Source: an uncultured delta proteobacterium
GTDB taxonomy: Bacteria > Desulfobacterota > Syntrophorhabdia > Syntrophorhabdales > WCHB1-27
Assembly (NCBI GenBank): GCA_963810935.1
Contig: CAWEPK010000017.1
Location: 1-64,000 of the forward strand
Direction: 5' to 3'
DNA: 64,000 bases
The notes under the pieces are model-generated. The model had not been told where the DNA came from. It saw nothing but the letters and a program-made list of their open reading frames with translations, and searched no databases. Of the stretch, positions 16,338 to 24,663 are shown one piece after another; positions within the stretch are counted from its first letter, which is position 1; every line of letters begins with the position of its first letter. The translations under genes were made by a program, and so were the position numbers.

Positions 16338-16560
16338 CGCGCTTTTCTTCGATTTTCCTCAAGAGCCGCGAGAGCGCCCTGAGCCTCTTCGTATCAGGCG
16401 TTTCCGTGGAAAGAAGCGTAAGCCGCCTCCTGTAAAAGGAATTCGCCGCGTCCTTCGACAGTAGCCGCTCGTATACTTCCCGCGCCTTGTCGAAGTGGCC
16501 CTGCCGCATGTAAATCTCCGCCAGGGTCGTCGAAAGAATCCTGACTTTTTCCTGAGTCAC
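16315..16560 (-). CDS. Small TPR-like protein
   Basis: TLAEIY..QG.FDKA.EVY..L single TPR; SD GGAG upstream. Confidence 0.75.
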   Translation of the reverse strand: MTQEKVRILSTTLAEIYMRQGHFDKAREVYERLLSKDAANSFYRRRLTLLSTETPDTKRLRALSRLLRKIEEKRDEREAGR

Positions 16561-16685
16561 GCCCTTTACTCCCCTGTCCTTTCTCGTTAATTTATAAAGA
16601 ATAATTATATCACAAAACGACCCCGCCCGGCCGATTTATTGGTCAAAAGCAAGGCAAACCGGGCACTTCCTGCGCAAACAGGGAT

Positions 16686-16759
16686 TGGCTGGGGGATCAG
16701 GGCTCGAACCTGAATAGCGGGCTCCAAAGGCCCGTGTCCTACCATTAGACGATCCCCCA
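16686..16759 (-). tRNA. tRNA-Gln (anticodon TTG)
   Basis: Minus strand reads TGGGGGATCGTCTAATGGTAGGACACGGGCCTTTGGAGCCCGCTATTCAGGTTCGAGCCCTGATCCCCCAGCCA: cloverleaf, GTTCGA T-loop, encoded CCA. Promoter TTGACG-N17-TAATAT lies upstream. Confidence 0.95.
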
Positions 16760-16872
16760 TCTGCCCCTTATATTAGCGTTCGCAAGCGCTGGCGTCAAGG
16801 CGAACGTTGACCTGATCGCGCGAGAAAAGGCTAAAAAAGCAAAACCAATGCTTTTTGCGCGGCTGGACTCGC

Positions 16873-16990
16873 GCCTGCTGCGGTGTCGCGCTATGCGGCG
16901 AAATACTCGCCTTGCGCCCTCCGACGTACCTGGATACGCCTCCGGTCGGCAAGGCTCCCATTTCATTCACATATCGCAACCCCTTGAGGC
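16873..16990 (-). repeat. Long palindromic REP-like repeat, subfamily A2
   Basis: Minus strand TATGTGAATGAAATGGGAGCCTTGCCGACCGGAGGCGTATCCAGGTACGTCGGAGG aligns with 55462-55584. Confidence 0.7.
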
Positions 16991-17283
16991 GCTCCTCCGG
17001 CCGCGACCGCCGCAATCGAATAAAGAGCATTATTAGGCGGCGGTAAGAGCGGGTTGTACCGTAGACATAATTGGGATACTACGGAGATCAATACCGGGGG
17101 TAAGATGTAATATGTCGGAGAAGGGGCCGGGAGATTTTGGGTGGAATTCGCGTTGCTTTCCGAGGAAGCGAGCCGGAGTCTCTATGCTATAAAAGCCCTC
17201 TTCCACAGGGGCGGATAAAAAGGCTACCCTCTTTCTCTTAAGCGATGGATGCACATCGCAAACCAAGGAAAGGGAGGTAGCCA

Positions 17284-18360
17284 ATGGAGATTCATAGGGT
17301 ACAGGATTTTGTGGTTGAAGGTAAAGAGGTTTTTATCGGTTTGGAAGACTCAAAGAAGACCTGGAAGATAGCAGTTCGGTGTGACAGGATGGTGATCCAC
17401 CAGGTATCCATGGAGGCAAAGTATGTCTTGCTGAAGCAATACCTGAGAAACAGGTTCCCCGGTTGCACGGTCCATTTGATGTACGAAGCAGGCTTCAAGG
17501 GGTTCAACCTTCACGATCTTCTTGCCGAAGACGGCATCGACTGCGTGGTGATCCCTCCCCATATGGTGACGGAGCCGAAGGCAAACAAGGTTAAGACCGA
17601 TAAAAGGGATGCAAACCGTCTCGCCCGCATCCTGGAGAGCCACGATTACAGGGACCCCTGCTGTGTACCCGACAAAGAGAGGAGGGAGGACCGGCAGGTA
17701 AGCCGTACCATAATCGCCATACAGAAGGATATCATCGGTAACCGCAACCGCATCCGCAAGCTCCTCGACTTTCACGGGATCGAGGTCCCCTTTGCCGGTA
17801 AGAGCGAATGGGGGCGAAAGGAGTTCGAGGGTCTTCGGACATTACCCCTGAGCGATCCCTTAAGGGCAGCTCTGGGCTCGCTTTTGACCATACTGGAGGA
17901 ACTGTGGGGCCAGCGTGCGGTCTTGAGGGACTATCTCCGGGGTCTGTGCAAGAAGGAGCGTTATAGAAAGCCCTACGAGGTCGCAAAGAGCATCCCCGGC
18001 ATAGGGTGGTTCACAGCCATCCGCCTGATATTAGAGCTGGGGGAGGATCTCTCCCGTTTCGGAAGCGGGAAGAAGATCGCAGGCTTCGTGGGGTTGGGCT
18101 GCAGCGAGCATTCGACGGGCCAGACCGAACGGAAAGGTCGTATCACGGGCATGGGGTCGGGGTTCATACGGCATATCCTGGTCGAGAATGCCTGGATAGC
18201 GATCAGAAAGGACCCGGCCCTGCTGTCCAAGTTCTCACGGGTATGGCGGTCGAGCGGCAGCAAGAAGAAAGCCATAGTGGCAGTTGCCCGTACTCTTATT
18301 GTGCGCCTTCGGGCCTGCATGCTTTCGGGCAGGCCTTATACGGTCGGAGTTATTAGATAG
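17284..18360 (+). CDS. IS110-family DEDD transposase / RNA-guided recombinase
   Basis: IGLED, YEAG and KTDKRDA (RuvC-like DEDD); SIPGIG, RF..GK...GFVGL...SEHSTG and KKAIVAVAR (Tnp20 domain); SD GGAGG. Confidence 0.95.
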   Translation: MEIHRVQDFVVEGKEVFIGLEDSKKTWKIAVRCDRMVIHQVSMEAKYVLLKQYLRNRFPGCTVHLMYEAGFKGFNLHDLLAEDGIDCVVIPPHMVTEPKANKVKTDKRDANRLARILESHDYRDPCCVPDKERREDRQVSRTIIAIQKDIIGNRNRIRKLLDFHGIEVPFAGKSEWGRKEFEGLRTLPLSDPLRAALGSLLTILEELWGQRAVLRDYLRGLCKKERYRKPYEVAKSIPGIGWFTAIRLILELGEDLSRFGSGKKIAGFVGLGCSEHSTGQTERKGRITGMGSGFIRHILVENAWIAIRKDPALLSKFSRVWRSSGSKKKAIVAVARTLIVRLRACMLSGRPYTVGVIR

Positions 18361-18363
18361 GAT

Positions 18364-18536
18364 GAGCCTGACGGAAGAGGACCTTAACAGAACAAGGGCG
18401 TACAACGCCACGTACGCTGTATTAAAGAACGGCCCGGAGTATGTTGACGCCCGTTCCTCTTTTTTCGAAAAGCAGACACATGTGGGTTGGACCACGAATA
18501 GCAGCTTGCAAAGAACCTCCTCTTCAAGAAAGGCTC
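18364..18536 (+). ncRNA. Putative bridge/seek RNA of the IS110 element
   Basis: Nested stems 18364-69/18531-36 and 18374-81/18518-25 enclose two stem-internal loop-hairpin modules. Their loops match target (ACGTACGCT, CCGGAG) and donor (ATAGCAG) sequences. Confidence 0.75.
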
Positions 18537-18816
18537 GCGCTTCGGCCGCGGACCTGTGTAAGGTCGTCGGCCTCGCGCTCGCTATCGGATATGTACTCAC
18601 TAATAACAGAGGGAAAGTCATGGACTGACCCATAAAGAAAAGGGGGTAGCAAAAGCCCGCTGGAAGAATCCGTTGACTTTTATCATAGCAGCATACGTAT
18701 TCTGTATGTGAGGACTCGCGACTGAGGAAACGACGCGAAGGCCGCCAAAAGATCCCGGCCCCCACCCCATATTGCAAATTCAGGGGAAAAAGCACACAAT
18801 ACGGCAGGAGGGCGTT

Positions 18817-19020
18817 ATGTCTGAGACTATTGTGAAAATAGAAGGAATGAGCTGCCAGCATTGCGTAATGCGCGTGAAAAAGGCCGTCGAGGCCCTGCCC
18901 GGCGTATCGAAGGCGGACGTGGCCATCGGCACAGCCAACGTCACGTACGACGACGCGAAGGTCAAAGAAAAGGACCTCGAACAGGCAATCGAAAACGTGG
19001 GATTTACGATAAAGAAGTAA
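18817..19020 (+). CDS. CopZ-like heavy-metal chaperone
   Basis: GMSCQHC HMA motif; SD AGGAGG. Confidence 0.9.
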   Translation: MSETIVKIEGMSCQHCVMRVKKAVEALPGVSKADVAIGTANVTYDDAKVKEKDLEQAIENVGFTIKK

Positions 19021-19123
19021 GCCGCGCCCCGTCGTCAAGGTGGGCACGGCCCGGGAGCCGCTTGAAGACCTGCGGCCTCCTGGTTCGCTTTATGCAAGGG
19101 TAAAGCCGGATAAGGAGGCGTAA

Positions 19124-19582
19124 ATGTTCAACAAAATAGTAGTGCCTGTCGATTTTTCCGAATACACGGACGAGATACTCGAATACGCGTCCGCCATCGC
19201 CAAGCGCTTCGACGCGTCCGTTCATGTGATCCACGTCGTCCCGAGCATGGAGTATTTCACGCCCTACGAGTCTTTCATGGCTGCCGAATACCTGGAGACC
19301 ATGCAGAAAAACGTGGAAAACGAGATTACCAGGCAGCTCGATGAGGCGGCCGCAAAGGTGACGGTCCCGGGCGTGACCAAGGCGATCCGCACCGGCTCGG
19401 CCTTCATCGAGATCACGGAGTACGCAGAATCGATAGGGGCGGACCTGATCGTGATGGGCACCCACGGCAGGGGCGGCCTGGAGCACATACTCCTCGGCAG
19501 CGTGGCGGAAAAGGTAGTGCGCAAGTCAAAGTGTCCGGTACTGACGATACGGCCGGGGCAGAGGAACAAAAAAACGGCCTAG
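19124..19582 (+). CDS. Universal stress protein (UspA family)
   Basis: IVVPVDFS, ADLIVMGTHGRGG, LLGSVAEKVVR.S.CPVL. Confidence 0.95.
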   Translation: MFNKIVVPVDFSEYTDEILEYASAIAKRFDASVHVIHVVPSMEYFTPYESFMAAEYLETMQKNVENEITRQLDEAAAKVTVPGVTKAIRTGSAFIEITEYAESIGADLIVMGTHGRGGLEHILLGSVAEKVVRKSKCPVLTIRPGQRNKKTA

Positions 19583-22286: not shown

Positions 22287-22415
22287 CGGGGCCGGGAGAT
22301 TTTCGATGGATTTCGCGTTGCTTTCCGACGAAGCGAACCGCAGCATACGTATTGTATACGTGAGGATTCGCGCCCGAGAAAACGACGCGAAGGCCGCGAA
22401 AAGATCCCGGCCCCG
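22287..22415 (+). repeat. 129-bp palindromic REP-like repeat (family A), intact
   Basis: CGGGGCCGGGA...TCCCGGCCCCG arms; central CCGCAGCATACGTATTGTATACGTGAGGA. Confidence 0.92.
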
Positions 22416-24518: not shown

Positions 24519-24534
24519 CACCCGATATGTGAAA

Positions 24535-24663
24535 CGGGGCCGGGAGATTTTCGATGGATTTCGCGTTATTTTTCGAAGGCGAGAGCCGGAGCGTACAGTT
24601 TGTGTACGTGAGGACTCGCGCCGAGAAAAACGACGCGAAGGCCGCGAAAAGATCCCGGCCCCG
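24535..24663 (+). repeat. 129-bp palindromic REP-like repeat (family A), intact
   Basis: Near-identical arms to the 22287 copy; central GCCGGAGCGTACAGTTTGTGTACGTGAGGA. Confidence 0.92.

What the first reader, a model, noticed from the sequence alone, without database searches (positions are those of the whole stretch)
18364..18536. Bispecific guide RNA (bridge/seek type) in the IS110 3' non-coding end
Seen: the region folds by eye into outer stems (GAGCCT/AGGCTC, GAAGAGGA/TCCTCTTC) enclosing two modules. Module 1 has stem 18390-406/18443-456 and carries ACGTACGCT (18410-18), the reverse complement of the right target half AGC(A/G)TACGT (8/9 to the occupied site), plus CCGGAG (18434-39), identical to the left target half plus core. 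Module 2 surrounds hairpin GTGG/CCAC and carries ATAGCAG (18498-504), identical to the element's right end plus core, and a weaker AGAC (18474-77) complementary to the left end. On the bottom strand the core is CT. Known: IS110/IS1111 recombinases use such RNAs, and IS621 uses a CT core. Inference: this is an intact, reprogrammable RNA-guided recombinase whose guide explains its own insertion site.
Basis: partly seen in the sequence, partly recalled or inferred. Interest (0 to 1): 0.92.

Follow-up and report, generated by a model that had tools for sequence, protein, structure and literature searches.

The report
Guide RNA of IS1111-type insertion sequence
The stretch behind this jumping gene's transposase encodes a folded guide RNA whose short loops spell out both the genomic repeat it lands in and the element's own ends: a very well supported natural example of the RNA-guided insertion sequences described in 2024, not a new kind of system.

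Summary
Window 17179-18689 is a 1.5-kb IS110-family element of the IS1111 layout, flanked by an AG core. It has split a REP-like repeat, and the genome holds 4 copies, two of them identical. Directly 3' of the transposase gene, 18364-18536 folds (z -3.9) into a closing stem with two arms.

- **Target arm:** carries ACGUACGCU, complementary to core plus right flank (8/9 here, 9/9 at a sister copy), and CCGGAG, identical to left flank plus core.
- **Donor arm:** carries AUAGCAG (right end plus core) and CAGACACA (left end, 5/8).

In about 26 distinct homologous RNAs the scaffold is conserved and all four guide segments co-vary with each element's own flanks and ends. None of 20,000 permutations reached the observed match, and the variable donor base agrees in 22 of 22 elements. 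A covariance model finds the RNA only inside the IS copies and always just 3' of the transposase gene.

No transcript data exist, and reprogrammability is inferred from natural variation only. The class is known (bridge RNA/seekRNA, 2024), so this is a new member of it. One modest oddity: the right-target guide seems to work in two registers, with a 1-nt bulge.

The parts
17124..17178 (+). Left half of the interrupted REP-like repeat. Its last bases are the left target CCGG (17173-76) plus core AG (17177-78).
   Evidence: Own-genome BLAST: query 25-79 and 1591-1661 lie next to each other, overlapping by 2 nt, in many uninterrupted copies. Empty sites read GAGCCGGAGCATACGTATTGTG.
17179..18689 (+). 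Insertion sequence proper (1,511 bp), followed by a second copy of the AG core at 18690-91.
   Evidence: 4 copies in the genome share 17173-18698. Copies 1 and 2 are identical, copy 3 has a 1-nt insertion in the transposase gene, and copy 4 has several indels.
17182..17195 (+). Left subterminal inverted repeat CTATGCTATAAAAG, 3 nt from the end. It contains the -10-like TATGCT (17183-88).
   Evidence: Read from the sequence. Conserved in 17 of 18 homologous left ends. The partner is 18677-18688. The junction promoter scan is.
17222..17282 (+). Hairpin in the left end whose 3' arm covers the ribosome-binding site GGGAGG of the transposase gene.
   Evidence: Inverted repeat I2, arms 17222-39/17265-82. 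Both arms are conserved in homologues. The function is inferred.
17284..18360 (+). Transposase gene, 358 aa, IS110 family (DEDD/RuvC-like N-terminal domain plus C-terminal domain with S/T-G motif).
   Evidence: ORF. Pfam PF01548, PF02371. NCBIfam NF033542 'IS110 family RNA-guided transposase'. A profile of 10 relatives hits PDB ISCro4 9t56 (3.8e-12) and IS621 8wt6 (3.8e-10).
18364..18536 (+). Predicted guide RNA (bridge RNA / long seekRNA): a closing stem plus a target-binding arm and a donor-binding arm.
   Evidence: Fold z -3.87. Consensus structure of 26 homologues has 34 pairs, 11 with compensatory changes. A closing stem appears in 25 of 26 individual folds. Covariance model R1 scores 110.8 bits at 18363-18537.
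18390..18457 (+). Target-binding arm (stem 18390-18408 / 18442-18457 with an internal loop and a small inner hairpin).
18410..18418 (+). Right-target guide ACGUACG+CU. It pairs with the top strand AG+CGTACGT.
   Evidence: 8/9 to this site and 9/9 to copy 2. Own vs non-cognate flank is 5.23 vs 2.15 of 8 in 22 elements, 0/20000 permutations.
18433..18439 (+). Left-target guide CCCGG+AG. [quoted passage not shown]
   Evidence: CCGGAG is present at all 4 left junctions. Own vs non-cognate is 4.20 vs 1.99 of 8 in 15 elements, 0/20000.
18473..18480 (+). Right-donor guide CAGACACA, opposite core plus left end (AG+TCTCTA). The match here is imperfect (5/8).
   Evidence: Register fixed by homologues with 7/7 matches (L014, L039, L016). 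Own vs non-cognate is 5.67 vs 4.37 of 7 in 15 elements, 0/20000.
18481..18496 (+). Invariant hairpin UGUGG...CCACG at the tip of the donor arm.
   Evidence: 5 pairs, unchanged in 25-26 of 26 sequences.
18498..18504 (+). Left-donor guide AUAGC+AG, identical to the last 5 nt of the right end plus core.
   Evidence: The one variable base (C/G/T/A) equals the last base of the element's right end in 22 of 22 elements, 0/20000 permutations.
18537..18578 (+). Second conserved hairpin 3' of the guide RNA. Its role is unknown (part of a longer transcript, a processing signal or a stability signal).
   Evidence: 15 predicted pairs in 14 homologues, 5 with compensatory changes.
18673..18678 (+). -35-like TTGACT in the right end. 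After circularisation it lies 17 nt from TATGCT in the left end.
   Evidence: A script scan of the joined ends, using the same criteria as the promoter tool, gave one site at 9/12. No sigma-70-like site was found in the linear element. The TTGACT is conserved in homologues.
18677..18688 (+). Right subterminal inverted repeat CTTTTATCATAG (reverse complement CTATGATAAAAG), 1 nt from the end.
   Evidence: Read from the sequence. TTGACTTTTATCATAG is near-invariant in homologues.
18690..18760 (+). Core AG (18690-91), right target CATACGT (18692-98) and the right half of the REP-like repeat.

Best explanation
Window 17179-18689 is an IS110-family insertion sequence with the IS1111 layout: short left end, transposase gene, and a long right end that carries the guide RNA.

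The RNA (about 18364-18536) is most likely made as the 3' part of the transposase transcript. That transcript would be driven by a promoter that exists only when the excised element is a circle (TTGACT in the right end, 17 nt, TATGCT in the left end).

The RNA folds into a closing stem with two arms.
[quoted passage not shown] Bound by transposase, presumably as in IS621, the RNA brings the circle junction and a CCGG-AG-CGTACGT site together, and the strands are exchanged at the AG core. This explains why all four copies sit at CCGG|AG|(G)C(A/G)TACG sites inside short genomic repeats.

**Shown here:** the anatomy, the fold, the matches, and their co-variation across relatives.
**Inferred:** transcription, protein binding, and the chemistry (by homology).
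For: 1. **Transposase family.** Pfam PF01548+PF02371. NCBIfam NF033542 above its cut-off. A profile of 10 relatives hits ISCro4 and IS621 structures.
2. **Ends and core.** Defined from 4 copies and from empty sites.
3. **Fold.** z -3.87, with 0/200 shuffles as stable.
4. **Conserved scaffold.** 26 distinct homologous RNAs give 34 consensus pairs, 11 with compensatory changes. A closing stem appears in 25/26 folds.
5. **Co-variation, each with 0/20000 permutations reaching the observed value:**
   - RTG vs own right flank 5.23/8 against 2.15/8 for other elements' flanks (22 elements).
   - LTG 4.20 against 1.99 (15 elements).
   - RDG 5.67/7 against 4.37 (15 elements).
   - LDG variable base 22/22.
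6. **A relative with 9 copies (G004).** Its RTG differs (AGUAUGCU). It sits at CCGG (8/8 left flanks) and CATACT (6/7 right flanks), as its guide predicts.
7. **Model R1.** It finds 4 hits in the own genome, all inside the 4 IS copies. It finds hits in 22 of 101 related genomes, and the listed hits that I compared with the transposase coordinates lie directly 3' of the gene. It also finds the RNA next to 49%-identical transposases not used to build it. Those guides again match their flanks, with a GG core (read by eye).
8. **Chance.** The three strings of the window RNA occur together in 0/20000 shuffles.
9. **Layout.** It agrees with published IS1111 seekRNAs: NCR downstream, top-strand match 5' of bottom-strand match, long forms 151-172 nt.
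Against: - No RNA data. No listed sequencing run holding the stretch is RNA, so transcription, ends and processing are unknown.
- The right-donor guide matches this element's own left end at only 5 of 8.
- The occupied site has one A:C mismatch to the RTG.
- 2 of the 4 copies sit at sites with an extra G between core and right target.
- In 3 of 22 relatives (L042, L031, L068) the RTG matches the flank in no register. LTG matches are generally weaker.
- The homologues are kin, so the permutation counts overstate independence.
- No Rfam family matches.
- R1 finds nothing significant next to 4 plasmid-borne IS110-family genes, best E 0.11. Similarity to experimentally studied RNAs is therefore architectural and not shown by alignment.
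Confidence: 0.9

Rival explanations
1. The RNA gene is real, but this lineage is a decaying or poorly mobile element. Its donor guide no longer fits its own left end (5/8), so the copies are relics of past activity and not an 'intact' system.
For: RDG CAGACACA against the expected UAGAGACU. Copy 3 has a frameshift and copy 4 several indels. No contig joint showing a circle or an empty allele was seen.
Against: Copies 1 and 2 are identical over the whole element at different sites, which argues for recent movement with this same guide. Imperfect RDG pairing is common in relatives (10 of 15 have fewer than 7/7). It is also reported as discontiguous for IS621 (Durrant 2024, passage). The transposase frame and its conserved residues are intact.
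Confidence: 0.07
2. The structured region is a cis-acting DNA or RNA element without guide function. Examples would be internal transposase-binding repeats that copy the ends, a terminator, or an mRNA-stability structure. The flank matches would then be coincidental.
For: ATAGCAG is a copy of the element's own end, as internal binding sites would be. There is no transcript evidence.
Against: Internal binding sites cannot explain matches to host DNA outside the element, nor why those matches change with each relative's insertion site. No intrinsic terminator was predicted on the + strand. The three strings occurred together in 0/20000 shuffles.
Confidence: 0.02
3. The region is protein-coding (ORFs 18284-18628 +, 18441-18635 +, 18235-19047 -).
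For: Open frames of 114, 64 and 270 aa overlap it.
Against: No Pfam family passes its threshold. The 270-aa frame runs across the element's end into host DNA. Homologues differ by 1- and 2-nt indels and by paired compensatory changes.
Confidence: 0.01

Closest known systems
seekRNAs of IS1111-family elements ISEc11, ISPa11, ISKpn4, ISPst6 (Siddiquee et al. 2024, PMC11187229; sections 6, 8, 9, 13 read)
   Same: Non-coding region downstream of the transposase gene. Subterminal inverted repeats. The RNA segment complementary to the top strand lies 5' of the one complementary to the bottom strand, and the two overlap at the insertion point. [quoted passage not shown] Long RNA forms of 151-172 nt compare with 173 nt here. 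ISPa11 also targets a REP.
   Different: The transposase is 358 aa (theirs are 330-350). The motif reads GLGCSEHSTG, with C where the family logo has P. No plasmid-borne relative exceeds 39.4% identity. None of their RNAs could be aligned here. Nothing is shown experimentally for this element.
IS621 bridge RNA (Durrant et al. 2024, PMC11208160, passages read; Hiraizumi et al. 2026, PMC13626964, abstract and passages read)
   Same: Two loops, each with two guides that read opposite strands of target or donor. The 2-nt core is included in all four pairings. The core is CT on one strand (AG on the transposase strand here). RDG pairing is imperfect or discontiguous. The transposase profile matches 8wt6.
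   Different: In IS621 the RNA lies 5' of the gene in the left end and the guide order is LTG then RTG. Here it lies 3' and the order is RTG then LTG and RDG then LDG. A closing stem joins the two arms. I found no consistent equivalent of the handshake dinucleotides: the 2 nt after the core complement are an invariant stem (by eye).
REP-targeting relatives ISPpu9/Ssr9 (PMC12288879, abstract in the search listing only) and ISPpu10 (bioRxiv 10.64898/2026.03.19.712850, abstract read)
   Same: IS110-family elements with a small RNA that insert into repetitive extragenic palindromes or stem-loops present in many copies.
   Different: Different hosts and sequences. Whether the repeat's hairpin adds specificity here, as reported for ISPpu10, was not tested.

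Membership tests
IS110 family RNA-guided transposase | DEDD_Tnp_IS110 (PF01548) plus Transposase_20 (PF02371) domains, and the NCBIfam equivalog NF033542 | tested here: met
   PF02371 6e-18 and PF01548 1.6e-09. NF033542 scores 173.6 bits against a cut-off of 140.
IS110 family RNA-guided transposase | Catalytic DEDD residues and the C-terminal S/T-G nucleophile motif | tested here: inconclusive
   D22, E68, D106, D109 and G279 are invariant in 10 relatives, with S/T at 278. The ...STG segment aligns with YESG of ISCro4. Assigning the four acidic residues as catalytic rests on motif position recalled from the family. The PDB alignment covered only the C-terminal half.
IS1111 group of the IS110 family | Longer non-coding region downstream of the transposase gene | tested here: met
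   329 nt (18361-18689) against 105 nt (17179-17283).
IS1111 group of the IS110 family | Subterminal inverted repeats of 7-17 bp | tested here: met
   CTATGCTATAAAAG (17182-95) against the reverse complement of 18677-88, CTATGATAAAAG. That is 12 of 12 with one extra base, set 3 and 1 nt from the ends (by eye). The repeat tool missed it because of the indel, but reported further LE/RE inverted pairs I7 and I9.
IS1111 group of the IS110 family | Transposase of 330-350 aa with a GL-P----S(t)G motif | tested here: inconclusive
   358 aa. The motif is GLGCSEHSTG: spacing and TG are kept, and P is replaced by C. Relatives at 49% identity have GLIPSEYSSG or GLTPSEYSSG. No tree with ISfinder references could be built.
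Bridge RNA / seekRNA | Guide segments complementary to both strands of the target, overlapping at the core | tested here: met
   18410-18 and 18433-39 against the junctions of 4 copies. Co-variation in 22 and 15 elements.
Bridge RNA / seekRNA | Second loop complementary to both strands of the donor (joined ends) | tested here: met
   LDG 7/7 here and 22/22 for the variable base. RDG 5/8 here, with 7/7 in 3 relatives, and it co-varies.
Bridge RNA / seekRNA | Transcribed, bound by the transposase and required for transposition | not testable with these tools
   No RNA run holds the stretch.
Any Rfam 15 family | Match to a curated covariance model | tested here: not met
   Only tRNA matched in 16500-19200 at E up to 1.

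The most novel reading that the evidence does not exclude
The right-target guide of this RNA family works in two registers. The same RNA has inserted at CCGG-AG-CGTACGT/CATACGT (copies 1, 2) and at CCGG-AG-G-CGTACG (copies 3, 4), where one target base next to the core must bulge out.

A one-base offset also restores a 6-7 of 7 match in 4 of 22 relatives (L017, L020, L055 at +1; L034 at -1). It never does so in 462 non-cognate pairs per register.

If real, bulge tolerance next to the core roughly doubles the natural target pool here (10 plus 10 empty sites). It would also be an off-target rule not covered by mismatch screens.
Probability: 0.35. Interest if true: 0.4.

Novelty: new member of a known kind. 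Interest (0 to 1): 0.3.

Why it matters
It adds a clean, naturally 'reprogrammed' series to the RNA-guided recombinases. There are about 26 related guide RNAs from uncultured anaerobes whose four guides can be read against known flanks, including members with AG and GG cores. The transposase clade is under 40% identical to any plasmid-borne relative.

Such a series can inform scaffold and guide-length rules, and possibly bulge tolerance, for bridge-recombinase design. It also gives annotators a covariance model for a family that Rfam lacks. It does not change what is known about the mechanism.

Tried and rejected
- **RNA evidence:** no RNA holder listed among 13 runs.
- **DNA contigs:** contigs of 4 runs laid on 16900-18950 gave no joints, so no circle junction or empty allele. 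The loose ends at 17178 and 18690 fit other copies of the repeat and decide nothing.
- **Rfam:** nothing but tRNA.
- **PDB:** a single-sequence search gave 0 hits. Only the profile reached ISCro4 and IS621.
- **R1 on plasmid loci:** on 4 plasmid loci with IS110-family genes (36% and about 29% identity) R1 found only a 9.8-bit partial match, E 0.11. The model is clade-specific.
- **Handshake-guide logic of IS621:** the two bases after the core complement of RTG and RDG are invariant stem bases and do not track LD or LT (by eye). No claim is made.
- **Coding reading:** the overlapping ORFs have no family above threshold.
- **Promoter:** no sigma-70 promoter was found inside the linear element.
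- **Earlier scan notes:** none by place or by sequence.
- **Two calls failed on form and were corrected:** (a translation with stops; that sequence was dropped; word format, repeated).
- **Bulge literature:** one search ('bridge RNA', 'bulge', 'IS110') found 3 papers, of which 2 were listed; neither is on this point by title. I did not read them.

Full report
**What is there.** Window 17284-18360 (+) is an open 358-aa frame.
- It carries the two Pfam domains of IS110-family transposases: PF02371 at 6e-18 and PF01548 at 1.6e-09.
- It passes NCBI's equivalog model NF033542, 'IS110 family RNA-guided transposase', at 173.6 bits against a cut-off of 140.
- A profile of 10 relatives reaches the solved ISCro4 (9t56, 3.8e-12) and IS621 (8wt6, 3.8e-10) transposases. 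The single sequence did not.
- D22, E68, D106, D109 and G279 are invariant among the relatives. Residue 278 is S or T, and the segment HSTG aligns with YESG of ISCro4.

**Ends, core and target.** A search of the window's own genome found four copies sharing 17173-18698.
- Copies 1 (window) and 2 are identical. Copy 3 has a one-base insertion in the transposase gene. Copy 4 has several small indels.
- The DNA on the two sides of the window copy is a short repeat that occurs uninterrupted many times in the genome. In those copies the two halves abut with a 2-nt overlap.
- The element is therefore 17179-18689, flanked by AG on both sides (17177-78 and 18690-91).
- The four junction pairs read xCCGG-AG|TCTC... 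and ...ATAGC|AG-CATACGT, AG-CGTACGT, AG-GCGTACGC and AG-GCGTACGT.
- The genome holds 10 sites CCGGAGC(A/G)TACGT and 10 sites CCGGAGGC(A/G)TACG, nearly all inside two repeat families.
- One such unoccupied near-target lies at 16935-16945 (-), about 230 bp from the element.

**The observation.**
- The stretch 18364-18536 folds at -57.5 kcal/mol against -42.8 +/- 3.8 for 200 shuffles, z -3.87, with none as stable.
- In 20,000 dinucleotide shuffles of the 173 nt, the three matches never occurred together. These are the 9-mer with at most one mismatch, CCGGAG and ATAGCAG. Singly they occurred 143, 1213 and 71 times.

**The decisive test: do the loops track the flanks in relatives?**
- *Data set.* Transposases of 65-79% identity occur in 25 of 101 related genomes, counting the window's own, and in 32 public contigs. 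A profile search of all loci gave 44 RNA hits, which collapsed to 27 distinct sequences after duplicates between the two searches were removed. I aligned 26 of them (A1). Copy 4 of the own genome was left out.
- *Scaffold.* It is strongly conserved while four short segments vary. RNAalifold gives 34 pairs, 11 with compensatory changes. In 25 of 26 individual folds a closing stem pairs the 5' and 3' ends with different sequences.
- *Ends located.* The ends of each element were found with two conserved end motifs. 22 elements gave a right junction and 15 a usable left junction. The others end at contig borders or lack the motif, and one spurious left match (L034) was dropped.
- *Right-target guide.* It matches its own flank at 5.23 of 8 positions against 2.15 for other elements' flanks.
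- *Left-target guide.* 4.20 against 1.99.
- *Right-donor guide.* 5.67 of 7 against 4.37.
- *Left-donor guide.* Its one variable base equals the last base of the right end in 22 of 22 elements, using all four nucleotides.
- *Permutations.* In each of the four tests none of 20,000 permutations reached the observed sum. The elements are kin, so these are not true probabilities.
- *Independent spot checks.*
  - A relative with nine copies (G004) has a different right-target guide (AGUAUGCU). It sits at CCGG in 8 of 8 readable left flanks and CATACT in 6 of 7 readable right flanks.
  - Loci not used for the alignment show 7- to 10-nt matches, read by eye (L090, L091, L095, L096, L097).
  - Six copies of a 49%-identical element have a GG core and the flank CGGATAGG, complementary to their guide in 4 of 6 (by eye).

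**A model of the family.** The covariance model R1 was built from A1.
- In the own genome it finds exactly four matches, each inside an IS copy. There are no orphan RNA genes.
- It finds matches in 22 of 101 related genomes. The listed places that I compared with the transposase coordinates (for example all nine G004 copies) lie a few bases 3' of that gene.
- It also detects the RNA beside four 49%-identical transposases that were not in the model, at 23.6-50.3 bits.
- It finds nothing significant beside four plasmid-borne IS110-family genes, best E 0.11. No Rfam family matches the region.
- The closest plasmid-borne transposase is 39.4% identical.
- The scaffold is therefore specific to this clade, whose public records are labelled Syntrophorhabdales, Syntrophorhabdus and 'delta proteobacterium' MAGs, with outliers.

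**How it most likely works.** The strand logic is the published one.
- LTG and LDG look like the top strand and pair with the bottom strand. RTG and RDG pair with the top strand. The core is included in all four pairings (Durrant 2024, passages).
- The order, top-strand match first, and the position downstream of the gene are those of IS1111-type seekRNAs (Siddiquee 2024, sections).
- Seen from the other strand the core is CT and the order is LTG then RTG, as in IS621. The IS1111 layout amounts to the same machine with gene and RNA inverted relative to the ends.
- No sigma-70-like promoter is found in the linear element. Joining the ends creates TTGACT-17 nt-TATGCT, 9 of 12. Siddiquee et al. 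likewise found no promoter other than the junction one.
- I therefore infer transcription from the circle through the transposase gene into the RNA, which starts 4 nt after the stop codon.
- The 173-nt structure is the size of the 'long' seekRNAs (151-172 nt). The 68-nt target arm is near the size of the 'short' ones (82-96 nt).
- Transcription, binding and catalysis are inferred, not shown.

**Points against, and oddities.**
- No RNA run exists for this sequence. Contigs of four DNA runs showed no circle or empty-site joint.
- The right-donor guide fits this element's left end at only 5 of 8.
- The occupied site has one A:C mismatch. Two of four copies sit at sites with an extra G after the core.
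- When a shift of one base is allowed, 18 of 22 relatives match at 6 of 7 or better: 14 in register, 3 at +1 and 1 at -1. Three (L042, L031, L068) and L029 (5 of 7) fall short. Non-cognate pairs reach 6 of 7 in 6 of 462 cases in register and 0 of 462 in either shifted register.
- This suggests, but does not prove, tolerance of a one-base bulge next to the core. Some offsets could be errors in where I placed the ends.

**Comparison and verdict.** The element meets the tested defining features of IS110-family RNA-guided transposons and of the IS1111 layout.
- Met: downstream non-coding region, subterminal inverted repeats, guide order.
- Departures: a slightly long transposase and a C in place of the motif's P.
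- It is a new member of a known kind, and a good one: all four guides are legible and supported by natural co-variation.
- Earlier notes of this scan list 72 similar findings in other genomes, which fits an ordinary though attractive case.
- Interest is 0.3.

Noticed in passing
window 18537-18578: A second hairpin directly 3' of the guide RNA is conserved in 14 homologues, with compensatory changes in 5 of 15 pairs. No U-run follows it. It may belong to a longer RNA form or to processing.
   Followed up: partly
window 17222-17282: A conserved hairpin in the left end has a 3' arm that covers the transposase ribosome-binding site (I2). A similar motif, AAAGGGGGTAGC, recurs in the right end at 18639-50 (I7). 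This could be translational control or an extended inverted repeat.
   Followed up: no
window 17124-17178 + 18690-18760; also 16908-17010 and 22288-22412, 24525-24660: Two families of short REP-like repeats are present, with dozens of copies genome-wide. The IS target motif sits in their hairpin. An unoccupied near-target CCGGAGGCGTA lies at 16935-45 (-).
   Followed up: partly
window 16686-16759 (-): tRNA-Gln (anticodon TTG), about 420 bp to the left of the element.
   Followed up: yes
window 18817-19020 (+): A small heavy-metal-associated (HMA) domain protein gene lies just right of the interrupted repeat (PF00403, 9.6e-17).
   Followed up: yes
L038:224-940 (-) (own genome, next to IS copy 2): A second, unrelated IS110-family gene (28% identity to this transposase) lies upstream of copy 2 on the other strand.
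   Followed up: no
L089, L090 (G012): A related IS in another genome has guides aimed at CCCTGT-AG-ACCGGAGGCGTACT. That is the same kind of repeat motif, cut at a different position.
   Followed up: no
L043: A contig filed under a Nitrososphaerales archaeon MAG carries a 73%-identical transposase and an RNA with the same donor guide as the window's. This is either a binning error or transfer across domains.
   Followed up: no
L057, L058-L063, L064, L065: Relatives at 49% identity from other phyla use a GG core. LTG ends in GG, LDG is AUAGCGG, and the RTG core complement CU pairs by C:G plus a U:G wobble.
   Followed up: partly
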